A DNA stretch of 64,000 nt from a virus, in IMG/VR virus record IMGVR_UViG_3300047471_000466, positions 15,248 through 79,247 of that record; one strand, 5' to 3'. The position numbers were made by a program, and so were the translations under genes. The notes beneath the pieces are model-generated. The model was not told the DNA's origin, searched no databases, and was given only the letters and a program-made list of their open reading frames with translations. Positions 5,890 to 64,000 of this stretch are shown here, one piece after another. Position 1 is the stretch's first letter, and each line of letters starts with the position of its first letter.

Positions 5890-6400
5890 TAAATACGACG
5901 ACTCAAAAGACGGCGGGTATAGCTACGGAGAGAAACTTAAAATGGCAGCAGAGGGCATGTTAGACCCCCAAGAAATCGGGTTACCGAAAGACGATGCGGG
6001 AATCAAAGCGGCTCAGAATGAATTGAAGCCGCCAACAGTTATGAAACTCGGGGACTTCGTTACATTCGAAGCGTCGGTAGTGCCCCCACAACTACGGGCT
6101 CATTGGGCTTGGCAAGACTTGGCGGTTAAGCCGTCCGAACATATGAAGGCTTGGGAAGCGGAATGGTGCGCCGATCATAAAAACGAACACGCGATCCAAG
6201 GCCTGTTGCATAGTGGAGCCTTGGCTGCAAAGGTCGGCCAGCTTTTCACGGATCCAATTTTAGGGTTCGTAGACCTGATGCGGAAAGCCGCGGATATCTT
6301 GGAACAAAAATACAAGGAACTAAAAGAGAATGATCCAAACCCCATTATTACAAGGGACGAAGCTGCGCAAGAGGAAGCGAAGCGAATTACGGGAGCGTAA
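5873..6400 (+). CDS. Hypothetical protein
   Basis: 175-aa ORF overlapping the upstream stop within the operon. Confidence 0.7.
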   Translation: MREGTDKYDDSKDGGYSYGEKLKMAAEGMLDPQEIGLPKDDAGIKAAQNELKPPTVMKLGDFVTFEASVVPPQLRAHWAWQDLAVKPSEHMKAWEAEWCADHKNEHAIQGLLHSGALAAKVGQLFTDPILGFVDLMRKAADILEQKYKELKENDPNPIITRDEAAQEEAKRITGA

Positions 6401-6809: not shown

Positions 6810-8582
6810 ATGAGCAATCACGTTTATGCTATCGACTATGAGACCTTCTATACCAAGGAGTATTCAATTAAACATCTTGGAAACTGGGCCTACACCCACC
6901 ATGAAGAATTCGACGCCTATCTCCTCGCCGTCACAGGAACTGACGGATACCGATGGGTTGGAAATCCAAGCGACTTTGAATGGGATATACTACGAGGACA
7001 GGAACTTGTTGCTCATAACGCAGGTTTCGAACTTGCGGTTACCGAAAGACTTAAAGAGCTTGGGATCGCGCCCAAAGATTTCACGCACGGGCGGCTATAC
7101 GACACTGCGGACCTTACCGCATACCTTGGTTATCCCAGGAGTTTAGAAAACGCAGTCCAATATTTGTTAGGCGAGAAGATCAACAAAGATGTTCGCGCTA
7201 ACATGCAGGGCAAACGATTCGAAGAACTTCCCGCAGAAGAGCAGGAAAAAGTTAGGCTCTACGCTCAAAGTGATGCTGATCTGGAACTCAGATTGTGGGT
7301 AGACCACAACCACAAATGGCCAGAACATGAACGACTACTCTCAGAAGAAACAAGAGAGATGTGTTGGCGTGGGCTACCGACTGATGTTGATAAAGTCAAC
7401 AAGGCGATCAAAGTCCTCGAACACAAACTTCTTAAAGCCAGAACCATTATACCGTGGGCTCGCGAGCCGGATGCACCAATACTTTCGTTACCCAGAGCAG
7501 CACAGGAAGCAAGAAAACATGGAATCGCACCACCGAAAAGTTTTGCTAAAGACAGTGAAGAATTTGAACAATGGCTCAAAGAACATGGAGAGAAATTTCC
7601 ATGGGCCAAAGCTTTAGGAGAATACAGAAGTGCAAACAGACTATCAAAAACATTTCAGACACTTAAAGAAAGAACTGACGAAGGAGGGGTGTTCCGCTAT
7701 GGTCTTAAATATGGCGGGGCTCACACATTACGAGATAGCGGGGATGCAGGATTTAATGTCCAGAACCCCCCGAAGGAGTCTCTATTTGGTTGCGATCTTC
7801 GAGGAGGAATGCTCACCGCCCCAGAAGGATATATCCTTTGTATCGCGGATGAGAGCGCTATTGAACCAAGAGTCTTATCGTGTCTCTCCGGAGACGAAAA
7901 ATTAAGAGAGATGTTGGCCGCGGGCACAGACCCTTATGAGGCTCAAGCCAGAATTGCGCACGGGTACACTGACACTCGGCCACTAAAACTTGTGGATCCG
8001 TTACGCCGCCAATACATGAAGGTTGAAGTTCTGGCTTGTGGTTATGGAGCAGGAGAAGAGAAGATCCAACTAATCGCTAAGCGGCAGGTAGGATTGGAGC
8101 TTTCGTTAAACGAAGCAAAGAAAATTAAAGAAGGTTTCCGGAAGCGGCGCTTCATTCCCGAATTTTGGGAACGTCTTGAACGAGATTGTCGCAAGTCTGC
8201 GCCGGGAAATTATGAGATCGACCTTCCCAGTGGAAGGACAATGCTTTATCGAGACGTTAAAAGCTTCGGTTCGATTAGTGCGGTTATCCCGCGGCTAAAC
8301 CAAATGATGCGGGTCAAGCTTTGGGGCGGAACTTTGACTGAGAATGTTTGTCAAAGTTTGGCGAGGGATATCTTCATGTATCATATCATGGAAATCAAAA
8401 AACAGTTGTCGTTAAACGCTTTACTGCGAAGCCATGATGAGGGTGTTTGGTTACTGAAAGAAGATACCGCGGAACAGGATTTCAAAAATATTCTTTCAAT
8501 CATGCAGACCGCGCCCGAGTGGATGCCAGACTTCCCTGCTGCCGCGGAAGGCAAACTCAAGAAAGCCTACTGCAAAATATGA
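6810..8582 (+). CDS. polA: Family A DNA polymerase with 3'-5' exonuclease
   Basis: Exo I AIDYET, Exo II AHNAGFE, motif A IADESAIEPRVL, motif B RQYMKVEVLACGYG, ENVCQSLARD, motif C SHDE. Confidence 0.93.
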   Translation: MSNHVYAIDYETFYTKEYSIKHLGNWAYTHHEEFDAYLLAVTGTDGYRWVGNPSDFEWDILRGQELVAHNAGFELAVTERLKELGIAPKDFTHGRLYDTADLTAYLGYPRSLENAVQYLLGEKINKDVRANMQGKRFEELPAEEQEKVRLYAQSDADLELRLWVDHNHKWPEHERLLSEETREMCWRGLPTDVDKVNKAIKVLEHKLLKARTIIPWAREPDAPILSLPRAAQEARKHGIAPPKSFAKDSEEFEQWLKEHGEKFPWAKALGEYRSANRLSKTFQTLKERTDEGGVFRYGLKYGGAHTLRDSGDAGFNVQNPPKESLFGCDLRGGMLTAPEGYILCIADESAIEPRVLSCLSGDEKLREMLAAGTDPYEAQARIAHGYTDTRPLKLVDPLRRQYMKVEVLACGYGAGEEKIQLIAKRQVGLELSLNEAKKIKEGFRKRRFIPEFWERLERDCRKSAPGNYEIDLPSGRTMLYRDVKSFGSISAVIPRLNQMMRVKLWGGTLTENVCQSLARDIFMYHIMEIKKQLSLNALLRSHDEGVWLLKEDTAEQDFKNILSIMQTAPEWMPDFPAAAEGKLKKAYCKI

Positions 8583-17730: not shown

Positions 17731-18390
17731 ATGAGATCCTATTTACTTTGGGTATCCGCCAATCAAGGCAGGATGACCCCGCTGTTACATTCCGCTGATC
17801 GCCTTTATGATATCGCCATTCATGATTATGGTGACTGGACGGAAGAAGACGTTAGAAAGAATTGCGAAGCTGAGTACTGGCTTCCTTTTCCACGAAGAGA
17901 GAAGTTTGAAGTCGCCGCAACGATGGTGAACGTTCTTCCTTCCTATCGATACTACGCATTTCTTGACGACGATCTCACTGTTGACGCGGTCATTCTTAAC
18001 CGGCTTTTTCTTGTCGGCGATTCTCTAAATTTGGATCTTTATCAACCGGCGCTGACGAAAGAAAGTTTTTCCAGCCACCAACATCTGTATCAAAATAATT
18101 ACGGCGGACCCATTCGTCGTGCCCCATTTGTTGAGATTATGTGCCCGTTCATGAGCCGGAAGATGGTTGAGCAAGCTGCTCCTACCTTCGATCTTAACCA
18201 ATCGGCGTGGGGGCTGGACATACATATTTGGCCGAAGTTGGCTGTGGATTGCTATGTTGTAGACGCCCTCCCAGTCGCCCACATGCGACCTCCAGCAAGG
18301 CGGGACAGGGTACAACGAAACGGATTAACCCCTCATCAGGAATATGAGATAATCAGAAAGATGAATTATGATGGAAACAGACCTTGGTAA
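17731..18390 (+). CDS. DUF707-like putative glycosyltransferase
   Basis: YRYYAFLDDDL, LDLYQPAL, FVEIMCPFMSR, WGLD match DUF707 motifs. Confidence 0.75.
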   Translation: MRSYLLWVSANQGRMTPLLHSADRLYDIAIHDYGDWTEEDVRKNCEAEYWLPFPRREKFEVAATMVNVLPSYRYYAFLDDDLTVDAVILNRLFLVGDSLNLDLYQPALTKESFSSHQHLYQNNYGGPIRRAPFVEIMCPFMSRKMVEQAAPTFDLNQSAWGLDIHIWPKLAVDCYVVDALPVAHMRPPARRDRVQRNGLTPHQEYEIIRKMNYDGNRPW

Positions 18391-19201
18391 AGCAGTCGTT
18401 GTTGTCGCCTGGCATAACGAAGAACAACTAGCAGCGTTTAAACGAGAGTGGTATATCAAGCAGGACGACCCTGTGATATTCCAGCAGGACAAACATAAGG
18501 AAGGCTGCGCCGTCACTAAGAACAAAGGAATAAAGAAAGCCTTTGATTCCGGAGCCGAAGTCATTTGTGTTTTGGATGACGACTGCTTTCCTGATTCTAG
18601 CAATCTTCTTTGGCCGGGCAACATTCGCTATTTCATCCAGCAACACGTTGAAGCCTTGCGGCCTCAAGCCGTGCAGCGGGTAATCTCTACGACCATACCC
18701 AATTCCCGTGGGACTCCTTATCGCCATACAAGCATGAAGATGCCGGTCGCTGCCTCCATGGGGTTCTGGTCGGGCTATCCGGACTTCGACGCTATCGCAG
18801 CCTTGCAGCTAGGAGAAACTGCGAAAGTGAAATTCAACCAACAAGCGATCTTTGGATCCTTCTTTCCATTGTGCGGAATGAACTTCGCCTTTAGGCGGGG
18901 TTGGGTGGATTGCGCTTTGCAGGTTGAGGGATGCAACCGGTGGGAGGATATTTTCGGAGGTTGGGTTTTTCAGAAGATCGCGTATGAACAGGGTTGTTGT
19001 TTTAACTTGAACGGTCCCGTAGTTCGCCATTCCCGGCAATCCAACGTCTGGCATAACCTGAGAGAGGAAGCTAAGTATATCGAACAGAACGAAACGCTTT
19101 GGGAAATTATCGCTAAAGCTCCTTATGGGTTGTCTGCTAATTCGTTGCGAAAACTTTATATTGAACCTATGTTGAAAAAAGGAGGTGATAAGAATGGCTG
19201 A
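18368..19201 (+). CDS. GT75 / reversibly glycosylated polypeptide (UDP-arabinopyranose mutase-like) protein
   Basis: LDDDCFP, RGTPY, SMGFWSGYPDFDA, FPLCGMNFAFRR, RWEDIFGGW, HSRQSNVWHNLREE parallel plant RGP motifs. Confidence 0.75.
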   Translation: MMETDLGKAVVVVAWHNEEQLAAFKREWYIKQDDPVIFQQDKHKEGCAVTKNKGIKKAFDSGAEVICVLDDDCFPDSSNLLWPGNIRYFIQQHVEALRPQAVQRVISTTIPNSRGTPYRHTSMKMPVAASMGFWSGYPDFDAIAALQLGETAKVKFNQQAIFGSFFPLCGMNFAFRRGWVDCALQVEGCNRWEDIFGGWVFQKIAYEQGCCFNLNGPVVRHSRQSNVWHNLREEAKYIEQNETLWEIIAKAPYGLSANSLRKLYIEPMLKKGGDKNG

Positions 19202-23454: not shown

Positions 23455-23841
23455 GTGGTTTTAGTATAGCATGAAATTTCTAGAAAAAAATTTTTCTCTG
23501 TCGGTGATATACGCTCACACGCGGGACAGTATGGGGACGTGACGCGATAGGGGCGGGGCGGTCTGATGCAGCCCTAGTAGTGCAGACACGATCTGCACCC
23601 AGTAAAGGGTAAACGGATGAAGTCAGTAGGTAGTAGTAGGTAGTGAGATTTCTCTGGGGAATGTCAGACGCCTTGACAGTGTTGCGAGTAGCCTTGGCAC
23701 AGTGTAGTAGATGCAATCACTACATTCGGAAGGACGCAATAGCGAGTAGCTCAACAAGCGTAAGCAAACCTGCACAGCCCTCACTGAACGACGAATAGAC
23801 CAAACTTCAAGCCAGAAAAAGCCAGTGAACCTGTATCACTG

Positions 23842-24242
23842 AAGCACTGCTGCACTGACCTATGCATAACATACATAGGTTAGACAACATAGCGGAAGTT
23901 AGACATGTAGTTGAAGCTGTGCTGCTCCCCAAGCGGGGACAGTCAGCCATGACTGCAATCTATCGAAACGGGAGAACATTCGGAAAAGTGCCGATGCGCG
24001 CCTTCACAGGTAGCAAAGGTCGTTGCCGTGAGGCTTCACGTTGGGAATTCAATCCCCAAACGTTGAAGGAAGCGGAAGTTTTCCGGGGCAAGCGCGAAGA
24101 TCGTAGTAAGCACATTACTGCATGGTCACCTTGCCCAACTGCGCCAATCGAAACTCCAATGAGTTTTTACCAGCGCAATATGTTCAAACGTTTCCACCGT
24201 GTAGCCTCGTAAGAGGCTGCATAGGTCAGTGTAGTAATGCTT
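23842..24242 (+). ncRNA. Candidate structured RNA domain (~400 nt) closed by a 25-bp long-range helix
   Basis: 23842-23866 pairs with 24218-24242 at 24/25 positions (2 G-U); multiple internal hairpins; encloses a possible 87-aa ORF at 23949-24212. Confidence 0.55.
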
Positions 24243-24249
24243 ATTACAA

Positions 24250-24455
24250 CTTTGCGATATTGCTTCAATGTCGCATTGCACCAGTGATTCAAGGTCGCAT
24301 CCCTGAATTATTATGCGTTGGCTATAACAACGCTTTAAGGGTGAATGAGCATCACAACACTATGGGCACGCTAGGTGTTTAGTGTGACAGGCACGTTATG
24401 TGTCTGTCTGTGATTCTGCTAGGTCATATTGTTGCATTGGTGCAATGTCGCAAGG
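24250..24455 (+). ncRNA. Candidate structured RNA domain (~205 nt)
   Basis: 24250-24270 pairs with 24435-24455 at 20/21 positions (with G-U); internal hairpins such as gacaggcacg/tgtgtctgtc. Confidence 0.5.
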
Positions 24456-24548
24456 CTACATAGGTGAATAGTTTAATTCAACTAATGTTTTGTGGCGTTT
24501 GCGTGGTGCAACGGACTTGGCAGATAACAGACAGCGAAAGGAACAACT

Positions 24549-25019
24549 ATGGACAACCAAATTGTTCCCGCAAACTCTGTTACGTTGGCAGAGATTGATG
24601 AGTCGGAAGACTTGGGTCAATACAACAAGCCAACTGTGTCTGCGTTCATCGCAGCACAGCACGGCATCGTATTGTCCAAGGGCAATCGCAATCTCAAGTT
24701 TATTGTGGCTTCACTTGTGAAGTCCGGTAAAACTGAGGCGGCTGCAAAAGACCTCGTTAAACTCGGTCGCAAAGCGCATGATAAGCATGTTGCCGGATAT
24801 TACAAAAATATCCGTGCGGTCAATGCTGTCATTGCGGCAGACCCCGATTATCGCCAGTCCATGAAAGTCTGGCGCAATAAAAAGGGTGATCTTTGTGCCA
24901 ACACGATGTACCGCAAAGCGGGTGTCGTGTCCTCTGCAACGTATGAGGCAATGCGGGACGAATTGGCTGCGCTCAAGGCAATTGTGAAAACATTGCCTGC
25001 TGCGCCAGTCAAGGCGTAA
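24549..25019 (+). CDS. Hypothetical early protein (Ala/Lys-rich)
   Basis: SD gaaagga before the ATG; ends in a processing-type hairpin. Confidence 0.8.
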   Translation: MDNQIVPANSVTLAEIDESEDLGQYNKPTVSAFIAAQHGIVLSKGNRNLKFIVASLVKSGKTEAAAKDLVKLGRKAHDKHVAGYYKNIRAVNAVIAADPDYRQSMKVWRNKKGDLCANTMYRKAGVVSSATYEAMRDELAALKAIVKTLPAAPVKA

Positions 25020-25074
25020 ATCGGTGTCTGCTGCAATGCTCAATGGTAGCATTGCAGCAGCAATCGCTTTATGC
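25014..25074 (+). promoter_or_regulatory. Intergenic internal-loop hairpin H1 (RNase III-site-like)
   Basis: cggt-GT-ctgctgcaatgct-caatggt-agcattgcagcag-CA-atcg plus a lower stem containing the stop codon. Confidence 0.55.
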
Positions 25075-25147
25075 GAATGAAAAGTCTGAGGCTTTGGCCT
25101 TTGCCGCCAATATAAGACTCAGCATAGCGTTCGCATAAAGCACAACT

Positions 25148-25288
25148 GTGGAAAAGCTAATCGTCCAAATAATCCGACGACTTGACGCTCCATGCTATGG
25201 CGATTTGCCGCTAACTGCGGCTACTCTCGCCAATATCTTGGAGCAGGAGTTGCTGGATTATACTGTCGCCCAAGAGGCGAAACAATAG
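25148..25288 (+). CDS. Small hypothetical protein (46 aa; not in the ORF track)
   Basis: GTG 25148 to TAG, MEKLIVQIIRRLDAP...; followed by hairpin H2. Confidence 0.5.
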   Translation: MEKLIVQIIRRLDAPCYGDLPLTAATLANILEQELLDYTVAQEAKQ

Positions 25289-25290
25289 TT

Positions 25291-25327
25291 GCGGTGTCGG
25301 CTGCTCCTTAGGGAGCAGCTTGACCGC
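25291..25327 (+). promoter_or_regulatory. Intergenic internal-loop hairpin H2
   Basis: gcggt-GTC-ggctgctcc-ttag-ggagcagct-TG-accgc. Confidence 0.5.
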
Positions 25328-25486
25328 TATTACGCGGAATAGTTAGGCGACTTATCGCCTTGTGCGGCGCATGGAACGCCTGTGGGAAAGGGAGACTTGT
25401 CTCCATGAAACACATCCATGCCACAAGCCACAGTGTAACTCAGGCAGGTTCTTCAGCACCGTAAACCTTGAAAGTGAAAAACGGGC

Positions 25487-26335
25487 TTATTGTCGTAATG
25501 CGACACTGCTGCCTTGCAACAGGGTTCCGTGAAAAATTGGCACGGCGGAAAGCCAATACCGATGTTGCAAGGTAGCCAGTCGCATTGTGAAATGCCAGCG
25601 GCGGGCTAATAGCCGTGTGTCGAAAGATACCAAACAGAAGCAATGCGGCCTTCCGTCTCCTAAGGTGAGAGTGAGACACATATAGAACTGGGCGCACGTT
25701 GCGTCCACAAGCAGGTTCGTATGGTAAGAGTAACGGGCGGCGGCCATAGCTGCGTAAGGTTTCCCGACGCCTAGACGAATAGATGAAGACCTGACAACAG
25801 CGTGTAGGAGCGATTGAGGTTGATAGTTCCAATCAGCATTGCTCTGAATCTAAAACGAACGTGCTATCTCTGCGGCAGTCTCTTTTTGGTGATGGAGCCG
25901 TGGGTATGAAACCAACGCAGGTTGGGAAGCTGCGATATCAAGGTTCCGCAAATAGAACGATGCAATAATAGCATTGCGACGTGCTGCGGCGTGGATGGTT
26001 GCTATTCTATTCCACGCCGTAGTGGTCGCGGTGTAAAGAAGTTAACGGGTAAAGTCCACCCTTTTGTGGTTCCGTGCTTGCTCCTCTGCGACGTGAATGT
26101 TGCTACGATAATGCGCATCGTGTTGCGACACTGCAGCATTGTTTCAAGGTGCCATAATAAATTCAGGCAAGGCAGTCTGATACCTGTGAGCAATGCTGCA
26201 TAGCCGCAATACTCCCGATTGCAGCACAATCGGTGTCGGTATTGCAAGGCTGACCTAACAGCTACAATCAAATGGGCATAGCGGAAGTGTAGTTCCGCCT
26301 TGGTGTTTGCGACACACGCGGCATTACGACGGTAG
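25487..26335 (+). ncRNA. Candidate large structured non-coding RNA (~850 nt)
   Basis: No credible ORF; ends pair 15/15 (25487-25501 with 26321-26335); long internal helices rich in G-U pairs, a GAAA tetraloop and crossing helices. Confidence 0.65.
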
Positions 26336-26368
26336 TGCTGCGGAGCCGCAATTCTGCGGAAAAAGGGG

Positions 26369-26554
26369 GTGAGTTATATAAAAGCTGAAGTAAAAAACAA
26401 TACTTTGTTTATTGAGATTCCACTCCAAACACCCACGGCCAGCGGTTCGGGCAAGAATCTTGTGATTGCCTCGACTCACGGAATCACGGTGTCTGGAGCA
26501 TCTTTCAATGGCAATCCCGTCAAAATCGGGCTAAATGCCTTTGTGAAGGCGTAA
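26369..26554 (+). CDS. Small conserved beta-rich protein (SxSGKxxxIAST motif)
   Basis: L.IEIPL...SGSGKNLVIASTHG...KIGLNAF resembles a widespread uncharacterised small-protein family. Confidence 0.75.
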   Translation: MSYIKAEVKNNTLFIEIPLQTPTASGSGKNLVIASTHGITVSGASFNGNPVKIGLNAFVKA

Positions 26555-26602
26555 TTCTCGAAGTCGTGGCTCTGGCAACAGAGCCACGCATTCGGTAATT
26601 GT
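26551..26602 (+). promoter_or_regulatory. Intergenic internal-loop hairpin H3
   Basis: cgaa-GT-cgtggctctg-gcaa-cagagccacg-CA-ttcg. Confidence 0.55.
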
Positions 26603-26633
26603 AGTGAGTTCGATTGTGGACTTAAAATTACCA

Positions 26634-26811
26634 AGCCACGCATGGTAAACAAACCGTGCTGTTTGCAATCCTGTAAGCCGTGGCTAAATACTTTGTGTGA
26701 GTGAGATAATCAGGTGAGGTATGCGCTACCAAAATACTGACGATGGAAAAGCTGGTAAAGGATGAGGAGCGCAGGTTAATCCTTGGCTTGAATCCCTACC
26801 CACTCACACAA
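26634..26811 (+). ncRNA. Two adjacent candidate structured RNA modules
   Basis: agccacg/cgtggct (26634-26685) and perfect 11-bp ttgtgtgagtg/cactcacacaa (26693-26811) closing stems; non-coding. Confidence 0.45.
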
Positions 26812-26852
26812 TTCAATTTGCCGCGTGGCGGCTAACATGTAGGATAAATATT

Positions 26853-27026
26853 ATGAGTCCAATCATTCTTTTCCTTCGTGTTTTCGGGAAGAAAGACCCA
26901 ACTCAGACGACGGGTGATTTCAAGAATGAGTGCGGAAACCTCACTCAGGACAGGACATTCGTTGCTGAAGTGGAAGCTTTCGCCAAGAAAACTGGCATTA
27001 TTCCGGAAACCGAAGTCATCAGCTAA
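26853..27026 (+). CDS. Small hypothetical protein (57 aa; not in the ORF track)
   Basis: SD agga; MSPIILFLRVFGKKD...; stop codon lies in the stem of H4. Confidence 0.6.
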   Translation: MSPIILFLRVFGKKDPTQTTGDFKNECGNLTQDRTFVAEVEAFAKKTGIIPETEVIS

Positions 27027-27070
27027 TCGCTGTCGCAGCCTTGGAAACAGGGCTGCGCAAGCGGTGAGTT
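27021..27070 (+). promoter_or_regulatory. Intergenic internal-loop hairpin H4
   Basis: cgct-GT-cgcagccttg-gaaa-cagggctgcg-CA-agcg. Confidence 0.55.
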
Positions 27071-27072
27071 TT

Positions 27073-27255
27073 ATGAACGCGTATTACTACACGAACGTCA
27101 AAAACGTTCCCTTTTTAATGATGATAGTCTACGCCAAGGATATTGAAGAGGCCGATTGGTTTTTTCAAAAACAAACAGGCGTCAATCCGAATAAGAATTC
27201 ATTTATCACTTGTCGAATTGAGTTTAATTCGACTCCAATTGTATGGAAAAAATAA
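27073..27255 (+). CDS. Hypothetical protein
   Basis: Start revised to ATG 27073 (MNAYYYTNVK), directly after H4. Confidence 0.6.
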   Translation: MNAYYYTNVKNVPFLMMIVYAKDIEEADWFFQKQTGVNPNKNSFITCRIEFNSTPIVWKK

Positions 27256-27671
27256 CCCTGAATAACAGGCTCGTATTACGCGGCCCTTTGGGCTGGCTCT
27301 ACGAGCCTCAATGGGAAGGCCAAGACGGGCTTTGCGCAAGCTGCGGTAAGCCGCTGTCAGAGCATCCTGATTGGATTTTGCCTGATCGTGTGGTTAAATA
27401 CTGCAATGTTTCCAAATCTTGATGCTTTAGTTATTCCAGTCGGCCTGGTTATTGTCGTAATTCTTTTTGTGCATGCCATTCTGGCATCGCTTCCGTGAAA
27501 TATGGTTAACGAACATCCAACTATGGAAGAAGACATTCAAAGCCGTGTAGCGGCTGATGAAGAAATCACCAAGTTGCAGCGAGTCAAGGAGAATATTCTG
27601 AAAACTGCGCTTGATGATGATACCAAATGGCGATGGATTCGTCGAATAGACGCTGAAATCGCCAAACGATT

Positions 27672-27866
27672 ATGATAGAAATAATCCGAAAAGACGGCTC
27701 GTGGATAAAGTTCTCATGTCCTGAGTGGAACTATCTGTCCCCTGCTGCTCAGAAAGACATTATCAGGAAGTTACAAGAAAATCCGGTTAACATTATCTGG
27801 CCTCGGCCTGAGACTTGGCATAAACGAGAAATTGTTCGATCACACGGCGAACTGAAAACTCCGTGA
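27672..27866 (+). CDS. Hypothetical protein
   Basis: Coupled small ORF. Confidence 0.5.
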   Translation: MIEIIRKDGSWIKFSCPEWNYLSPAAQKDIIRKLQENPVNIIWPRPETWHKREIVRSHGELKTP

Positions 27867-28014
27867 TGGCGGTAGGCTTGCCATTTGTTTCTAGCAAGCT
27901 GCGCTAGCTTACCGAGATTCGTGTGAGCCCCGCTCCCCTGCGGCCATGTCCCGATAGGGTTTGTTACATGGCCGCAGCGAGCAGGGTTTTCCTGCTGAAA
28001 GGGGGTGAAAATAA

Positions 28015-28392
28015 ATGGTTACAGTTAGAATACGCCGATCTAAATGGTCGCGTGGTAACTGCGATTCCAGCAATATGTTGTTGGTTAAAGACGGAAATCC
28101 CAGACTAAACAAGTCCTTTAGATCAGGAAATATGTGTTGTTTGGGTTTCGCTTGTCTGGCTTTAGGGGCCAAGAAAAAAGACATTCTTGACCAAGCTATG
28201 CCGGACATGGTCGCCGACGACGAGGCAAGAGAAAAGTTAAAGGGATTGGTGAATAGTCACGGCGACAGCAGCCAGTTTGCGTTGGATGCTGCAGAAATAA
28301 ACGATAATGATGAGATTTCAGATCGTGAAAGAGAGCGCGAGTTGCGGCAGTTAGCCAAAGAAAATGGGTTTAGGTTCGTGTTTGTTCCGTAA
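28015..28392 (+). CDS. Hypothetical protein
   Basis: Strong SD aagggggtga; R..W.RG...MCCLGF motif. Confidence 0.75.
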   Translation: MVTVRIRRSKWSRGNCDSSNMLLVKDGNPRLNKSFRSGNMCCLGFACLALGAKKKDILDQAMPDMVADDEAREKLKGLVNSHGDSSQFALDAAEINDNDEISDRERERELRQLAKENGFRFVFVP

Positions 28393-28444
28393 GTCTTGCT
28401 TCCCTGCTACCGTGGTTTTCACGGTAGCAGTCAGCAACGTTTAC
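28389..28444 (+). promoter_or_regulatory. Intergenic internal-loop hairpin H6
   Basis: ttgct-TCC-ctgctaccgtg-gtttt-cacggtagcag-TC-agcaa. Confidence 0.5.
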
Positions 28445-28561
28445 CGTTGCGAACTATGAAACAACACATAAAGACAGTAATCGCTGAACTGCGAAATCCA
28501 AACAGATCGTTGCGGCACAATCTCGCAATTATCCGTTGGAGAATGCAGTATAACTACTGGC

Positions 28562-28621
28562 AATAAGTGAATAAGTGGGGCTGAGAATCAATGGTATTCT
28601 CAGCCCCATCCTTCACTTATT
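28562..28621 (+). promoter_or_regulatory. Intergenic internal-loop hairpin H7
   Basis: aataagtgaa-TAA-gtggggctgagaat-caatggt-attctcagccccat-CC-ttcacttatt; same 7-nt loop as H1. Confidence 0.55.
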
Positions 28622-28873
28622 TTCGTGGGTGAACGGTGAAAAACCTAGTAGCTAATGCGGAACGGAAGCTTGGTGAGCAACCCGTTAGTTCTAAAACACC
28701 AAAGCCCATGCACGGTTCTACGCTGTGCATGGGCAACCAATTTATGAAGGTAAAACTAACAGACAGAGTCGTAGACGTTGAAGTCGTTAGGATGAACACT
28801 CGCACAATGTGGGTTCGTCTTCCCGATGGAAACGTTATTAAACGTCATAAGCGCAAACATGTGGTGACAGAAA

Positions 28874-29320
28874 ATGAAGGACAATCGTGAACCAGAGTCG
28901 AATCCTTTAACAAAAAAAGAATTCGATGAAATTCTCAGGAGAACGGATGGCTTCGAGTCTTTCGTTCCTACTTGTGAAGATATCGTAAGATATCGTTCTC
29001 AAGCTACTCGGCTACTATTAAAGTTGCCTTGTTGGGGTTGTCCGGTGGAAGCCCAAATCACAAAAGTTGTGAATGGAGGAGAATACTTCGTGTATTCAAT
29101 CCTTGGTATGACAAACCACTGGGCTTGTATCCGCGAGGTAGAAATTTTATACATGTTTCCGCCTCAAGAGTTAACGGAACGAATTCGTGATTTAGAAACA
29201 CCCGTAGTAACTGTGGGAGAAGTGAAGAAAGTCCTAAAGAAAGCGGATAAAACTAACAAGCAAATAGGTAAAACATTAAAAGAGTTATTTGATGAACAAA
29301 CCAAGAAACAGAAACGTTAA
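28874..29320 (+). CDS. Hypothetical protein
   Basis: 148-aa ORF in the early-type run. Confidence 0.65.
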   Translation: MKDNREPESNPLTKKEFDEILRRTDGFESFVPTCEDIVRYRSQATRLLLKLPCWGCPVEAQITKVVNGGEYFVYSILGMTNHWACIREVEILYMFPPQELTERIRDLETPVVTVGEVKKVLKKADKTNKQIGKTLKELFDEQTKKQKR

Positions 29321-29693
29321 GAATCGTGCAGCAGCACGGTCTCCAGGTAAACGGGCACGATTACCAGTTAATGGAGCGCCGCAACAATTAACAAACCCTA
29401 AATTCATGAGTTCGCCTCAGAAAAAGGCGTTTGCTGAAGGTGTGGAGATTTGGGTATGATTTCTGAAGAAATTGAGCGGGCAATGGAAGACCTACAGGAA
29501 CAAATTAGCACTTTACGATCAAAAGTTCATTATCAAGATGATCGAATACGCGAATTAGATAACAGAATCTATGATTTAGAGGCAAAAACATGACACACAT
29601 ACAAGAATACCTGACAGGACAGATTAGTTACACCGAAATGTGGCGGGAACTCGCCGATTCCGGTGAGTTGGATTTATTGCCTTTGGCGGTAGA

Positions 29694-29742
29694 GTAATCC
29701 GGTGGCCGCTGCATTCGAAAGAATGCAGCGTGACCGGTTTAT
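29694..29742 (+). promoter_or_regulatory. Intergenic internal-loop hairpin H8
   Basis: ccggt-GGC-cgctgcattc-gaaa-gaatgcagcg-TG-accgg between a TAA stop and an ATG. Confidence 0.55.
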
Positions 29743-30641
29743 GAAATTTCGTATGAGATTAATACTCGACTGTCTGCATCGCAGATATTATTTATGGACA
29801 AGAAAGCATTGGAAACATTGGCGTTGGATTTGGCCCTTCTGATTCTTCAAACAGATTTATACACAGAGAGGCCGGATATCAAGGAGAAAGTCGATCAATT
29901 GATCACTATAACATTGGTGAAATTATGAATGAAAATGAGTTGTGGAGCGAGCATATTCGACGAAATCCCTTAAGAATGAATCAACTTCGTCAAGATAACG
30001 ATGAAGGACAGAATAACGAACCTCCAGAGGAACTAAGCGAAAGCTTTGTCCACATGGTGGAAACATCAACGCCTATATGACAGATAAGCGATACCAAGAG
30101 TTGATGGGAGAAGGCGGCGAAGGAGATGCTGCTGAAACTCCAATGTTGTCCGAAGCAGAACAAGACGAAGGATGGCATTTCTGTAACGAGTTCGATGGAC
30201 TTTTGGTGCAAGGCGACCCGAAGGAAAAGTATTGCGGGAAGGCTTGCATCGAGTGGTGTAGAGGAAAATAAAACATGAATATACAGTTTGTTAGACCCGC
30301 CGCTGTTCGTGGCTGGTGTAAACCCAAAGCGTTGTTAAAGATTTTGTATCACTCTCCTTCGATTGGAATCGATCAATGTATTTGGTTGGAGTCCGGTTCG
30401 CCGGATAACAAAAGAGAGGCAGACGAAATAAACGCAGTAATGAATGAAATAGTATGCAAACTACAATGATAAACCAACAGACAGAAACAACATACATACA
30501 CAATCCCTTGGAACGAGGCGTAATCCCGCCCAAGCAACGTGGCGCTTGCCGCCATTTGCTGGGGCAATACGACCCGCTGTTACACGCTTGGTGCAATGGA
30601 GTATTGCTTCTTGTAACAGGGGAGAATTTGTATCCGAGAGT

Positions 30642-43155: not shown

Positions 43156-43323
43156 ATGAAAACAATACCATGGATCTGTCTCTTTGGAATCATATTTCCT
43201 TGGGGGTGGCTCCTATCTTATTTAGGTGTAGTCGGTGCGTTAGCCGGATTCGGTTACCAATGTTTGGCGTGGGTTGGCGTGGTCTGCATCATGGCCTTCT
43301 CTAAGGTGAACAAAACTTATTGA
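43156..43323 (+). CDS. Small hydrophobic membrane protein (55 aa; not in the ORF track), opposite strand to the late operon
   Basis: MKTIPWICLFGIIFPWGWLLSYLGVVGALAGFGYQCLAWVGVVCIMAFSKVNKTY fills the intergenic gap exactly. Confidence 0.55.
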   Translation: MKTIPWICLFGIIFPWGWLLSYLGVVGALAGFGYQCLAWVGVVCIMAFSKVNKTY

Positions 43324-46300
43324 TTAGTGTTCTTCTCGGGCGGGGTTGGGTGTTGATGAACCGCAAACATCGATCCCACAAGAGCAAGACTTGCCCCGAT
43401 AATTGTATCCCGCAATTTAGGTTCAATTCCTTGTTGATCCATAGCATTGCTCCAGCCTTCTACGGTAGCCGCTAGAGGAATTGGTCCTTTGGTAAGAGCC
43501 CAATGAGTAAGCGAAATAGGATCTTTTGGATTTCGTGGCGTCGAAAATTTTACTCCCATATTTTCATATAAATTTTGTAAAGCTTCAATAGGCTTCCCAG
43601 TATACTGCTGCTTTGCTCGGGCGATTTCTACCAGATCCGAAATGGAGGGCGTTACTTTACCCATCGCATAGTTGATAATTTTATCTGTGTAGGGTTGACG
43701 ATTTTCGGCAGGGATTACATGAGATAGGGCGACACTTAAGGATAGCCTTAGGGGCGCAAGAAAAGAACTTGGAGCGAGCACTGTCTGACCATGCACTTTG
43801 AACGCCAACCAATCGGATCGGGTTGGGTCAAACCAATTTATTTTATCGTCTGAATTAACTGCTTTTAATATTGCAGCATTCACGCCTAGCGCAGCTACCA
43901 TAGTAGAGGCCATCTCTGCAGATCGTCGAAGCACTGCCATACGAAAATATCTTTCTGCAGGAGTGGCCGCGGTACCTTTTAAAAACAAACCGGTTGCGCG
44001 AAGGGGGTCAACGACCATTTGCTGCCATCGGGCTCCCTCTAATCTTGGGGCGAATAAAAATGTTCTCCAGTCTCCCGTGAGGAGATTACCAATTTTTGTA
44101 AATCCAGGAGTAGTGGTTCCGGTTTCAGAGTTAATCCGCGACATCGCTTCTTTCACAACTTGATCTTTATTATCTTGATCCAGTTCTTTGAACCAATCTT
44201 TACCTTGTAGTCGTTTGTATTCTTTCTGCCCCACGTTCATCCGCAAGACTTTAAGGGTATCCATTCCGCGATTACCCGCGACTCCGATTCTTCCTAAATA
44301 ATTGTTGTATTGTCCCATATCTTCCAACGTTCCCACTTTGGCAGCGAGACCTTGTTTCGTTAGATAGGCGTAATCATCCGCATTCATAACATCCTGCATC
44401 AGTTTCTCATGATACGCGGCGGCGTCCATTTTTACTCCTTTTTCATTTTTACCACCTAGAAAGGCTGCGCGAAATGCCTGAGGAATTGCGGCAAGTTCTT
44501 CTCTTCCTGCTGATAAAGGCCTAAATAACAAAGATCCTGCATGTGTAAGAGCGGGGTTGACGTGACCAACAACTGCAATGGTACGAGGAAGCTCCCAAAG
44601 TTTGGCGAGATTGCTTAATACTTTACCCTTGTCGGCATTGTCCATAAACGTTTTAGTGGCTTGCACAATCGCTCGTTGCTGTGCCTGTGCTTTATAACGT
44701 TCTGCCTCGAAAGCTCGCACCGTCTTAGGAGCCGAGATTGCTTCTTGGACTACGCGCCTATCGATCTTTAAATCACTGGCGACATCGTTAACCAATTCTT
44801 CTGGCCGAATATACTCTGTGCCGTCTAAATAATTTGCCTTAATGAACTTCCAAATATTACCGACTTCACGAATGGTAAGATTCTTCTGGCCAATTCTATA
44901 CGGCTTAGCTTCGAACCGTGCGTTAAGATATTGGCTAAGTTTCTTTCCAGCATCGGCGGGATCGTAGTCGAATCCAAATTCCAGTTGTCCAGTGTCTTTT
45001 CCGGTGGGATCTTTCTTTGTCTCTACTCCTGCTGCCTTGGCGGCTTTCTTTTCGGCGCTAGTTAGTTTGGTTCCTTCCGCCGCCTTACCTAATTCATTCG
45101 TAGTTCCCTCGGCAGTCTTGACAATCTCTTGTCCCATTTTGATAGAGTTCTTTAAGGTCTCAACTCTCGCCTCGGTCGTAGCTTGAACGATTTGTTTAAC
45201 CTGTTCCTCTTGCTTGGGCGTAAAGTCTTTCCCATAAACCATTTTGAAATAGGATCGAAGATCGAAGAAGTCGCCGGTATTAATATCCAACGCCCCTTGT
45301 ACCGCTTGTAAAGACTTACCGGCTTCCGCGGTCTTGTTATAAACTTTTTGCATCCAGTTTTGTTCCTTGGCGTAAGCTGCTTGAGCAGCGGCGGTATCAC
45401 CTTTTACTCGGGCCGCTACTTCTTCTCGCCTAATCTCGGAAACCTTTGCACGGAATAAATGAAAGTCTTCTGCAGATGGGACCGCCTTCCCTTTCACTAA
45501 GAAATCCAAACGTTCATCAGCAGCGTTGGGATTCTTGGCCAATATATCTTGGGCATCTTTGGCCATTTGTTCATGGGTGCCAAGGAAGTTTCCGACGTAG
45601 GGAACCCCCGCATCTCGCATGATGACAGCGTATTTGCCTTTGCTCTTGGGGAGTTCTTCTGGCGATAATCCAGCAGCGATAAGAAGTCTATCTGTTAGGG
45701 TGAATTCATCCGGAGTCTTTACCAGATCGTAGGATTTCCCGGTGATGTTGGTTTTCGGGTTGCCTTCGGCGTCTTTGAAAACTGGTGATCCGCCTTTTGG
45801 ATTGTCAATACCATACGCTATAGCAGTATTGCTAGTTCTGGGTTCGGCTGATTTATGTGGACCTAAATCCACTGCTTCTCCTTTCTGCCCTGTTATCTTC
45901 TCCATTGCAGAAGGGAGAGTCTGGTCGTAGTGGAGTCGCATGCCTTTGTCCTGTAATGGTTTAGAAGCTTCCGCAAGAAGTTCAGGAGTGACCTGTACGT
46001 ATTTAAAATTACGCTTACCATCATCTTTCTCCGCCTCTTCTTTTAATCCCGCCAGACCGCCACCCTCTTTAGTTACACGAATATCTGGCTCACGAACTAT
46101 GGCGGCGTCAGAAATATCACCGTTACCAAGATGTCCGGCCACCCAATCGCCTACTTGTGCTCGAACTGGATACGCCCGATCATGCCCCTCTGTCATCATC
46201 GCTGTCTCGGCATCGGAGAGAATTACTTTACTCGCACCGATTTCCTTGGCGTGTTGGATCGCTGCTTTCAAGGCGAGGGATTCGTAGACTTGAAGGAGTG

Positions 46301-63157: not shown

Positions 63158-64000
63158 TTAAGTTTGTTTTGTTACAACCATTTGCGAGCCTGCGTAAATA
63201 GTAATTATGCCCACTGATGAGCCGCTTCCAAGACTAACACGTATTGTTATATTTCCGGGATTCGCGCCCGTTTTTACAGAAGCCCCGTATCCGATACAGC
63301 AAAAATCAGTTCCTGCGGTCACGCCATAATTTTGTGTACCAGAGGCCCCTAAAACTCCACTGGAAGAAGTTAAGGATCCGCTACCCGAATGACCAAAGGC
63401 TCCCCAACTACCGATAGCTCCCGCGGCGCTAAAATAAAGACCAAAATTTACTCCGGCGATAGAGCTACATTGACCAAAAATTGACCAAGTAATATAATAT
63501 AAACTATTGGCTGCCGCGGCTATACTAAGACCAGTGATGTCTATAACACTATTGGTTTGCCAAATAAAGTTACTGGGAACCTTAACTGTATTAATTGAGG
63601 CTACAGGAACCGCTTGCGTTGGGGCCTCGATAAACAACGAGCTTCCATTCGGAACAGTCAACGCCGCGCCAGCGTTCATCTGGATAAAGTCGGCGAGCAC
63701 TAAACTAGAAGTCGCCCCAAGAGTAAGATCGGAAGTGTAAACTTTGTTGTCGTATCCACTGCCTGCTCCCGAAGCTCCTGTTGGCCCAGTAGGACCGGTT
63801 GGTCCGGTAGCCCCCGTAGTTCCAGACCCTGTGGCTCCTGTGGCTCCTGTGGCTCCTGTGGCTCCTGTGGCTCCTGTGGCTCCTGTGGCTCCTGTAGTAC
63901 CCGCGCCTGTCGCGCCAGTTGCACCGGTCGGGCCGGTGGCTCCTGTCGCGCCAGCAGAACCCGCATCACCTGTGGCTCCTGTGGCTCCTGTGGCTCCTGT
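63158..64000 (-). CDS. Second collagen-like fibre protein (5'-truncated by window edge)
   Basis: The frame of 63158..63700 stays open to 64000 and reads [25 protein letters not shown]...; the C-terminal domain is BclA-C-like. Confidence 0.85.
63828..63895. repeat. Perfect 9-bp tandem repeat (cctgtggct)x7.5 in the collagen gene
   Basis: Seven identical copies plus a partial; at least three more at 63969-64000. Confidence 0.9.

What the first reader, a model, noticed from the sequence alone, without database searches (positions are those of the whole stretch)
25487..26335. Candidate ~850-nt giant structured ncRNA with long-range pseudoknots
Seen: no credible ORF; the ends pair 15/15; helices at 25508-25521/25563-25576 (14 bp), 25971-25995/26011-26034 (24 bp, one bulge), 26132-26143/26189-26200 (12 bp), 25759-25768/25921-25930 (10 bp) and 25635-25646/25836-25846, which crosses the previous helix (pseudoknot or alternative fold); also gtgtc-gaaa-gatac and gcaatact/ggtattgc. 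Further structure extends upstream to about 25341. Established: GOLLD and ROOL are large phage-associated ncRNAs of several hundred nt and unknown function. I cannot match this element to them, or to group I/II introns, RNase P or tmRNA, by eye. Inference: a new large-ncRNA class or a divergent member of a known one.
Basis: partly seen in the sequence, partly recalled or inferred. Interest (0 to 1): 0.85.

Follow-up and report, generated by a model that had tools for sequence, protein, structure and literature searches.

The report
Modular structured non-coding RNA array, soil phage
The stretch is a real, gene-free, conserved and strongly base-paired piece of a soil phage's early region. It looks like a string of separately folding RNA modules inside a 6-kb hairpin-rich island, not one giant knotted RNA, and its transcription and function are unproven.

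Summary
The + strand of 25487-26335 folds better than shuffles (z -5.6), and no Rfam family, tRNA or tmRNA matches. Codon statistics place the non-coding stretch at 25289-26368 (1080 nt), between small real genes.

Three things weaken the "one giant pseudoknotted RNA" reading:
- Excess structure is not specific to this stretch. A roughly 6-kb island (about 23850-29750) is equally hairpin-dense, including inside a genuine gene.
- Single long-range helices are not beyond chance. 16% of shuffles contain a 15-bp stem, and a soil relative replaces the 3' strand of the "closing" helix with another hairpin.
- The fold changes when the boundaries change.

Evidence for function comes from one soil-metagenome relative. 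It keeps five blocks that coincide with predicted folding domains (3-6% divergence in three blocks, against about 17% at third codon positions of the neighbouring gene). The linkers between the blocks are replaced by unrelated sequence. Two roughly 95-nt hairpins are paralogues with 8 compensatory pair changes.

No homologue was found in more than 95 related phage records, IMG/VR, JGI metagenomes or GTDB genomes. Covariation among orthologues and expression could not be tested.

Best reading: a modular array of structured RNA cassettes in the early transcript, of no catalogued family.

The parts
25289..26368 (+). Gene-free non-coding stretch (1080 nt), the candidate structured-RNA array
   Evidence: Codon-usage scores of all inner ORFs are negative. 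No Pfam or PHROG hit and no protein relative. GC 0.517 against 0.469 for the genome. Folds better than shuffles.
25286..25450 (+). Conserved block C1: branched domain that begins with a hairpin directly after the stop of the 46-aa gene
   Evidence: 94% identical in soil relative X3 (10/165). Own fold z -3.6, 0 of 200 shuffles as good.
25451..25490 (+). Variable linker V1 (one hairpin)
   Evidence: In X3 these 40 nt are replaced by 135 other letters (table 5). The MFE fold shows hairpin 25455-25487.
25491..25592 (+). Hairpin cassette HP_A (block C2): 12-bp lower stem, internal loop, 14-bp upper stem, apical extension
   Evidence: z -5.5. Conserved in X3 with 9 changes and indels. Paralogue of HP_B.
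25593..25688 (+). Variable linker V2
   Evidence: In X3, 102 nt are replaced by 49 letters.
25689..25868 (+). Conserved block C3: small hairpin plus multi-branch domain closed by 25710-25720/25855-25865; the most conserved part
   Evidence: 6 changes in 180 nt against X3 (3.3%), compared with 17% at third codon positions of the neighbouring gene, Fisher p 4e-5. Thermodynamically unremarkable (z -1.75 on +, +0.9 on -).
25869..25954 (+). Variable linker V3
   Evidence: In X3, 86 nt are replaced by 110. In X7, 25901-25949 is replaced by 17 letters.
25955..26034 (+). Conserved block C4: long bulged hairpin 25971-26034
   Evidence: 5 changes in 80 nt in X3 and in X7. z -5.85.
26035..26115 (+). Variable linker V4
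   Evidence: In X3, 84 nt are replaced by 167 letters.
26116..26216 (+). Hairpin cassette HP_B (block C5), paralogue of HP_A
   Evidence: The model built from HP_A finds it at 32 bits, E about 2e-5, the only other copy in the genome. Of 28 shared pairs, 15 are the same, 5 changed on one side and 8 are compensatory. z -5.0.
26217..26368 (+). 3' tail with small hairpins (26215-26233, 26281-26298, 26318-26341, 26346-26359) up to the start of the 61-aa gene
   Evidence: MFE folds. In X3 the letters before 26346 form a different perfect hairpin (table 7).
24549..25019 (+). Upstream real gene (156 aa, unknown function), itself full of hairpins
   Evidence: Relatives at 87-90% identity. 23 of 27 X3 changes in 24576-24970 fall on third codon positions. 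Codon score 0.28. z -7 to -9.
25148..25288 (+). Probable 46-aa gene in a block that is replaced in X3
   Evidence: Codon score 0.27. Its stop is followed at once by the first hairpin of C1.
26369..26554 (+). Downstream 61-aa gene
   Evidence: Codon score 0.20. G-rich ribosome-binding stretch before its GTG start. Covered by many contigs of run X6.
23851..29750 (+). Hairpin-dense island in which the finding lies
   Evidence: Per-kb mean z of -2.6 to -4.7 against a genome mean of -0.55. The + strand is more stable than the - strand in 34 of 36 windows. Stems of 9-26 bp occur every 50-150 nt.

Best explanation
The stretch 25289-26368 is an untranslated part of the rightward early (small-gene) transcription unit of an uncultured 79-kb soil phage. 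It is not one globular RNA. It is an array of separately folding RNA cassettes: five conserved ones (branched domains C1 and C3; long interrupted hairpins HP_A, C4 and HP_B, of which HP_A and HP_B are paralogues) separated by linkers that relatives replace wholesale.

Shown: it is non-coding. The cassettes fold far better than chance. Three of them evolve three to five times more slowly than synonymous sites next door. Block borders coincide with predicted domain borders. The two paralogous hairpins kept their pairing through compensatory changes.

Inferred mechanism: the long hairpins, each more than 20 bp with an internal loop, resemble the hairpins that follow nearly every early-gene stop codon in the island. 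I take them to be double-strand-specific (RNase III-type) processing and 3'-stabilising signals, and to keep the untranslated RNA compact. Cutting at them would release C1 and C3 (about 165-180 nt) as stable RNAs. Their conservation at nearly every position, with only average folding energy, suggests that they bind a host or phage factor.
For: Non-coding.

Structure. Modest preference for the + strand.

Selection: relative X3 keeps 25286-25450 (6.1% changed), 25689-25868 (3.3%) and 25955-26034 (6.3%). Third codon positions of gene 24549-25019 differ by 17% (Fisher p 0.003, 4e-5 and 0.02).

Modularity: X3 replaces 40, 102, 86 and 84 nt by 135, 49, 110 and 167 nt exactly between predicted domains. 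X7 replaces 25901-25949.

Paralogues: a 46-nt direct repeat, 8 compensatory and 5 one-sided changes in 28 shared pairs, and the HP_A model finds only HP_B.

Hairpins start within about 12 nt of the stops at 25019, 25288, 26554, 27866, 28392, 28566 and 29320.

A relative with 58% DNA-polymerase identity has a structured island at the same syntenic spot without sequence similarity. One at 48% identity has a weaker island.

Precedent: highly expressed early long non-coding RNAs from two long intergenic regions of phage phi14:2 (10.1101/2020.03.07.982082).
Against: Transcript ends are unknown, and no sigma-70-type promoter or U-tract terminator brackets the stretch.

Orthologous covariation could not be computed, because only block-level differences of relatives were visible.

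The high block identity could partly reflect recent recombination rather than constraint.

The same block-and-gap mosaic continues downstream, through stretches that hold putative small genes (26552-27300).

The strand asymmetry is partly compositional: outside the island the + strand is also about 6 kcal/mol per 300 nt more stable.

RNase III-type cutting and factor binding are inference only, and the host is unknown.

7 of 35 HP_A pairs are lost in HP_B.
Confidence: 0.5

Rival explanations
1. One giant ornate ncRNA (about 850-1080 nt) with a terminal closing helix and long-range pseudoknots, a new class comparable to GOLLD or ROOL.
For: The whole 849 nt folds with z -5.6, and the MFE fold pairs the two ends. 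There are more long-range stems of 11 bp or more than in shuffles (16 against 8 +/- 3). Recurrent breakpoints in relatives lie near 25488-25491 and 26346, close to the proposed ends. C3 is conserved although weakly paired, as the cores of complex RNAs often are.
Against: A 15-bp stem occurs in 16% of shuffles. The closing helix competes with the lower stem of HP_A, and the fold drops it when the boundaries move. X3 has a different hairpin where the 3' strand should be. The 5' partners of the proposed crossing helices lie in linkers that relatives replace. The excess of long-range stems is explained by the repeated arms of paralogous hairpins. No match to GOLLD, ROOL or any other Rfam family.
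Confidence: 0.12
2. There is no independent RNA function. The stretch is an intergenic spacer or decayed genes in a fast-recombining early region. Its hairpins are only the cis-acting stabilisers found throughout the island, and the high identity of some blocks reflects recent recombination.
For: Hairpin density is the same in flanking kilobases that hold real genes. The block-and-gap mosaic continues downstream through putative genes. No homologue exists beyond very close relatives: more than 95 related phage records, IMG/VR, JGI metagenomes and GTDB genomes.
Against: Three blocks are three to five times less diverged than synonymous sites of the adjacent gene in the same relative. Block borders coincide with fold domains. 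Compensatory changes link the paralogous hairpins. GC is raised only in this stretch (0.517 against 0.467 for the island).
Confidence: 0.2
3. A DNA-level element, such as a replication origin, recombination hotspot or cruciform-forming region, rather than an RNA.
For: The - strand also folds better than shuffles (z -3.3 for the stretch, mean -3.6 over the island). In relative G002 the syntenic gap is almost equally stable on both strands (z -9.1 and -7.3).
Against: The stretch is GC-richer than the genome, not AT-rich, and has no iterons or tandem repeats. The + strand is more stable in 34 of 36 windows, and many stems hold G-U pairs that would be C-A mismatches on the other strand. The hairpins are phased to stop codons of + strand genes.
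Confidence: 0.08
4. Hidden protein-coding capacity: several very small genes, or a gene read by an unusual mechanism.
For: The phage has real genes of 46-61 aa next door, and weak or absent ribosome-binding motifs make small genes hard to exclude.
Against: All ORFs of 30 aa or more inside have negative codon scores. There are no family or protein relatives. The only hits to the 93-aa frame are repetitive giant proteins. Indels in relatives are not multiples of three (for example 40 to 135 nt and 102 to 49 nt).
Confidence: 0.05

Closest known systems
Early long non-coding RNAs of crAss-like Cellulophaga phage phi14:2 (g004-g005 and g005-g006 intergenic regions; Drobysheva et al., bioRxiv 10.1101/2020.03.07.982082)
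   Same: Long gene-free stretches among small early genes, co-directional with them. In phi14:2 they are transcribed more strongly than most genes, from the earliest time point, and persist. Function is unknown in both cases.
   Different: No sequence similarity to any deposited phage (blastn against 50,697 phage records). This phage's 2461-aa protein lacks the DFDxD motif and has no PDB relative, so a crAss-type virion RNA polymerase is not shown. Expression here is untested.
GOLLD (RF01998) and ROOL (RF03087) large ornate RNAs
   Same: Several hundred nt long, phage-associated, richly base-paired, non-coding, function unknown.
   Different: No covariance-model match even at E <= 10. Here relatives swap modules and the global closing helix is not conserved. 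There is no evidence for one compact fold or for multimers.
RNase III processing hairpins of the phage T7 early region (from my own knowledge, not tested here)
   Same: Hairpins with a lower stem, internal loop and upper stem, more than 20 bp in all, without U tracts, sitting right after early-gene stops in a polycistronic early region.
   Different: The hairpins here are longer, some carry apical extensions, and they occur inside a 1-kb untranslated stretch and even inside coding sequence. Cleavage is untested and the host is unknown.
Arrays of non-coding RNA cassettes and giant structured RNA loci noted earlier in this scan in crAss-like phages (e1-6025970, e1-5954383)
   Same: Gene-free, hairpin-dense stretches at the head of early regions, with conserved cassettes that are reshuffled among relatives.
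   Different: Different phage lineage (soil; family-A DNA polymerase; RIIA/RIIB) and no shared sequence. Those loci had family-wide conservation, while this one is seen only in near relatives.

Membership tests
GOLLD RNA (Rfam RF01998) | Match to the family covariance model (sequence plus consensus structure) | tested here: not met
   cmscan of the whole window at gathering score gave 0 hits. In 24900-26900 at E <= 10 there were only chance miRNA- or snoRNA-like hits.
ROOL RNA (Rfam RF03087) | Match to the family covariance model | tested here: not met
Group I / group II self-splicing introns | Catalytic core recognised by the Rfam models, and insertion inside a host gene whose exons join in frame | tested here: not met
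   No Rfam hit. The flanks are complete separate genes with their own stop and start (24549-25019, 25148-25288, 26369-26554).
RNase P RNA / tmRNA / tRNA | Rfam or ARAGORN detection | tested here: not met
Large ornate structured ncRNA (generic kind) | Several hundred nt without coding capacity | tested here: met
   1080 nt with negative codon scores and no protein relatives
Large ornate structured ncRNA (generic kind) | Secondary structure supported by covariation across many diverged representatives | tested here: inconclusive
   Only paralogue covariation is available (8 compensatory pairs between HP_A and HP_B).
Large ornate structured ncRNA (generic kind) | One conserved global architecture (long-range helices kept in relatives) | tested here: not met
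   The terminal helix is within chance, unstable to boundaries, and its 3' strand is replaced in X3. Partner strands of the crossing helices lie in replaced linkers.
Large ornate structured ncRNA (generic kind) | Discrete, expressed transcript | not testable with these tools
   No RNA run holding the sequence was listed.
T7-type RNase III processing sites | Irregular hairpin of about two helical turns with an internal loop, at intercistronic positions of an early polycistronic RNA | tested here: met
   HP_A has 12 + 14 bp, HP_B 8 + 13 bp and C4 10 + 16 bp. Hairpins begin at or within about 12 nt of seven early-gene stops.
T7-type RNase III processing sites | Cleavage by host RNase III | not testable with these tools
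   Needs an enzyme assay or 5'/3' end mapping.
phi14:2-type early lncRNA | Sequence homology to the phi14:2 intergenic RNAs | tested here: not met
   blastn (word size 11) against the GenBank phage collection found no match.

The most novel reading that the evidence does not exclude
The cassette array (about 25289-26368, or the unit 25488 to about 26345) is made as abundant early non-coding RNA. Its conserved domains C1 and C3 and its swappable hairpins would act in trans as decoys or inhibitors of a host RNA-binding defence or nuclease. That would be an RNA-based counter-defence locus whose cassettes turn over in an arms race. Together with the position-conserved but sequence-unrelated structured islands of related phages, it would define a new class of phage early RNA elements.
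Probability: 0.15. Interest if true: 0.75.

Novelty: new member of a known kind. Interest (0 to 1): 0.45.

Why it matters
Large structured phage RNAs with unknown roles (GOLLD, ROOL, the phi14:2 early lncRNAs) are an open problem, and soil phages are almost unexplored for them.

If the conserved domains C1 and C3 are stable RNAs, they are new RNA families, selected at nearly every position. They sit in the part of a phage genome that usually holds host-takeover and anti-defence functions.

The wider observation may be more useful than the single stretch. It is a roughly 6-kb early island in which even real genes are packed with hairpins, and it recurs at the same place in relatives that share no sequence there. 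That pattern points to selection on RNA structure itself (processing, stability, escape from Rho or RNases) in early phage transcripts.

As it stands the case is unproven and narrow in distribution.

Tried and rejected
Known RNA families: Rfam at gathering score over 64 kb and at E <= 10 over 2 kb gave nothing. ARAGORN gave nothing.

Similar DNA: GenBank phages, none. Earlier windows of this scan, none apart from this genome.

Fetching DNA of relatives:
- Flanking proteins and RIIA against IMG/VR: none.
- Alignment A2 of the 156-aa protein against JGI metagenomes and GTDB genomes: none.
- Exact 22-mers from C3 and C4 in IMG/VR, JGI metagenomes and GTDB genomes: none.
- These collections may withhold near-identical records.

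Distant phage relatives, found through a DNA-polymerase alignment:
- BLAST of the stretch in 55 records gave only 14-22-nt chance matches.
- Single-sequence covariance models of C3 and C1 found nothing in G001-G003.
- The C3 model found nothing in 45 further records.
- The closest record, G001 (75% polymerase identity), is cut before the region.

Using the translation of spurious ORFs to recover relatives' sequence:
- ORF 25440-25832(-) had no hit.
- ORF 25922-26203(+) hit only two giant repetitive proteins. I read these as low-complexity noise.

Expression: no RNA holder was listed by the look-up of sequencing runs.

Promoters and terminators:
- The sigma-70 and intrinsic-terminator scan was at or below the shuffle level.
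- A Bacteroidota-type promoter pattern was absent.
- There was no repeated phage promoter word and no strongly enriched motif in the island.

crAss-type or N4-type virion RNA polymerase as context: the 2461-aa protein has no PHROG, Pfam or PDB hit and no DFDxD motif.

An apparent stem swap around a conserved loop in X7 (25774-25803) rests on 30 letters and very weak local folds of -3.3 and -3.7 kcal/mol. I do not count it as evidence.

The X6 joints at 25074 and 25361 to 25488 have short sides (30 and 22 letters) and are only hints.

Full report
CONTEXT. The window is bases 15248-79247 of a 79,247-bp IMG/VR virus record. Near-identical DNA occurs in rhizosphere and soil metagenomes, and partial matches in a watershed metagenome. 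The phage encodes a helicase, an exonuclease, a family-A DNA polymerase, a weak primase-like match, ribonucleotide reductase, RIIA/RIIB and collagen-like tail fibres. The finding lies 1.6 kb into a block of small + strand genes that starts at about 23860, just after a block of - strand genes.

THE OBSERVATION. The 849 nt fold at -329.7 kcal/mol on the + strand (z -5.6) and -272.7 on the - strand (z -3.3). The individual hairpins 25488-25595, 25955-26040 and 26113-26217 have z -5.0 to -5.9, with none of 200 shuffles as good. The stretch has no credible ORF:
- Inner ORFs score -0.13 to -0.19 on a codon log-odds scale on which real genes of this phage score +0.12 to +0.35.
- They have no Pfam or PHROG match.
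- The longest, 130 aa on the - strand, has no relative among 5.8 billion proteins and was apparently never called as a gene.

The same score supports three small real genes around the stretch: 24549-25019 (156 aa), 25148-25288 (46 aa) and 26369-26554 (61 aa). The non-coding stretch is therefore 25289-26368, 1080 nt. Its GC is 0.517 against 0.469 for the genome.

WHAT DOES NOT HOLD.
- The global architecture is not secured. With G-U allowed, dinucleotide shuffles of the stretch contain long-range stems averaging 13.3 +/- 1.4 bp at the longest, and 16% reach the 15 bp of the "ends pair" helix. Only the total number of stems of 11 bp or more is raised (16 against 8 +/- 3). That follows from repeated, partly palindromic hairpin arms.
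- Refolding 25250-26370 drops the terminal helix in favour of local hairpins.
- In the soil relative X3, the 30 letters before 26346 form a different perfect hairpin where the 3' strand of that helix should be (table 7).
- The structure excess is not specific to the stretch. A sliding scan gives per-kb mean z of -4.7, -3.8, -3.6, -2.6, -4.2 and -2.9 for about 23750-29750, against a genome mean of -0.55.
- The genuine 156-aa gene reaches z -7 to -9 and contains a 26-bp hairpin. Stems of 9-26 bp occur every 50-150 nt across the island.
- The + strand is the more stable in 34 of 36 windows (mean -101.6 against -90.0 kcal/mol per 300 nt). About half of that gap is compositional, since outside the island the difference is still 6 kcal/mol.

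EVIDENCE FOR FUNCTION. Laying contigs of four metagenome runs on 24500-27300 showed a relative, X3, whose 1251-nt contig keeps five blocks:

| Block | Coordinates | Changes against X3 |
|---|---|---|
| C1 | 25286-25450 | 10 |
| C2 | 25491-25586 | 9, plus indels |
| C3 | 25689-25868 | 6 |
| C4 | 25955-26034 | 5 |
| C5 | 26119-26210 | 19 |

The sequence between the blocks is replaced: 40, 102, 86 and 84 nt by 135, 49, 110 and 167 letters. In the adjacent gene, 23 of the 27 X3 changes listed in 24576-24970 fall on third codon positions. That is about 17% divergence at those sites, and it confirms that the gene is real. C3 (3.3%), C1 (6.1%) and C4 (6.3%) are significantly less diverged (Fisher p 4e-5, 0.003 and 0.02). 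C2 and C5 are not.

The block borders fall within a few nt of predicted domain borders:
- C2 is hairpin 25493-25590.
- C4 is hairpin 25971-26034.
- C5 is hairpin 26120-26212.
- C3 is hairpin 25689-25707 plus the branched domain closed by 25710-25720/25855-25865.
- The replaced pieces are whole small hairpins.

X7 likewise replaces 25901-25949 by 17 letters. C3 is the most conserved block but is thermodynamically ordinary (z -1.75 on +, +0.9 on -). Its constraint is therefore on sequence, not only on pairing.

INTERNAL COVARIATION. HP_A (25491-25592) and HP_B (26116-26216) are paralogues. They share a 46-nt direct repeat at 74% identity. A model built from HP_A finds HP_B at 32 bits (E about 2e-5) and finds no other locus in this genome or in two relatives. 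When their independently predicted folds are mapped onto each other, 28 pairs are shared: 15 unchanged, 5 changed on one side to another standard pair, and 8 changed on both sides with pairing kept. Seven pairs of HP_A, mostly at helix ends, are lost in HP_B. This supports selection for the hairpin shape, but it rests on only two sequences.

DISTRIBUTION. The 156-aa flanking protein has just two other clusters in the protein collection, at 87-90% identity.

Scans of IMG/VR, JGI metagenomes and GTDB genomes with flanking proteins or with 22-mers of the RNA found nothing. Through a DNA-polymerase alignment I reached 80 related phage records. Among those searched, BLAST (55 records) and a covariance model of C3 (48 records) found no homologue. 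A model of C1, run only on G001-G003, also found none. The closest record (75% polymerase identity) ends before the region. The element is therefore known only from near relatives, and orthologous covariation could not be computed.

A PROPERTY CONSERVED WITHOUT SEQUENCE. In G002 (58% polymerase identity, complete genome) the syntenic interval is bounded by homologues of the genes at 18368-19201 and 28874-29320.
- It holds a structured island at 67-70 kb, with per-kb z of -4.0, -2.1 and -3.1 against a genome mean of -0.46.
- It includes an 834-nt ORF-poor gap with z -9.1 on + and -7.3 on -.
- There is no sequence similarity to the finding.

G003 (48% identity) shows a weaker island at the equivalent place, with z -2.7 and -2.4.

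INTERPRETATION. The data fit an array of separately folding RNA cassettes in an untranslated part of the early transcript better than one giant RNA. Hairpins start at or within about 12 nt of the stops at 25019, 25288, 26554, 27866, 28392, 28566 and 29320, and they lack U tracts. From my own knowledge of T7 early mRNA, irregular hairpins of about two turns at intercistronic positions are RNase III processing and 3'-stabilising signals. I infer the same role for these hairpins and for HP_A, HP_B and C4, and I suggest that C1 and C3 are released as stable RNAs of about 170 nt that bind a factor. These last steps are inference.

The nearest documented parallel is the pair of highly expressed early long non-coding RNAs of phage phi14:2, whose function is also unknown. 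There is no sequence relation, and a crAss-type virion polymerase is not evident here.

VERDICT. It is a new, uncatalogued example of a known kind, the structured non-coding RNA loci in phage early regions. Interest is moderate.

Earlier first-reader notes of this scan on the same genome had already flagged the island and the post-stop hairpins. I tested both and agree with them.

Noticed in passing
window 23851-29750: A roughly 6-kb island in which nearly every 300-nt window folds 3-9 sd better than shuffles, including inside the real 156-aa gene (a 26-bp hairpin at 24775-24836). It is the only such island in the 79-kb genome.
   Followed up: yes
L091:7000-10000 (G002 67-70 kb) and G003 52-54 kb: Related phages with 58% and 48% DNA-polymerase identity have a structured island at the syntenic place, with no sequence similarity to this one. 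The G002 gap L091:7571-8404 has z -9.1 on + and -7.3 on -, and holds a long-range perfect inverted repeat around 8040-8180.
   Followed up: partly
window 23862-24548: The ORFs 23862-24212 and 24122-24382 have codon scores near zero (0.05 and 0.00), while the region folds with z -6 to -7. This may be a second non-coding structured segment upstream of the 156-aa gene.
   Followed up: partly
window 25148-25288: An unannotated-looking 46-aa ORF (GTG start) has a gene-like codon score (0.27) and is followed at once by a hairpin. The block that holds it (25076-25286) is replaced in relative X3.
   Followed up: partly
window 24634-24659: Inside the 156-aa gene, X3 changes both 24641 (T>C) and 24653 (A>G). 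These form a predicted U-A pair, so it becomes C-G, and both are third codon positions. Other changes in the same hairpin break pairs, so this is anecdotal.
   Followed up: partly
L101:1-250 (start of the virus record) and window 63158-64000: The record starts with about 25 tandem copies of a 9-nt unit, and the same words recur at the record's other end inside a collagen-like gene. The 'direct terminal repeat' call for this record may therefore rest on collagen-repeat DNA rather than on true genome termini.
   Followed up: no
L101 about 6023-6038 (window -9224): A run of at least 15 G in the part of the genome before the window.
   Followed up: no
window 25922-26203 (+): The translation of this non-coding frame matches a 1647-aa protein in 19 stretches (E 1e-19) and a 2974-aa protein (E 6e-6). 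I read these as repetitive or low-complexity matches.
   Followed up: no
window 43317-50702 (-): A 2461-aa protein in the late-gene block with no PHROG, Pfam or PDB relative and no DFDxD motif. Its function is unknown.
   Followed up: partly
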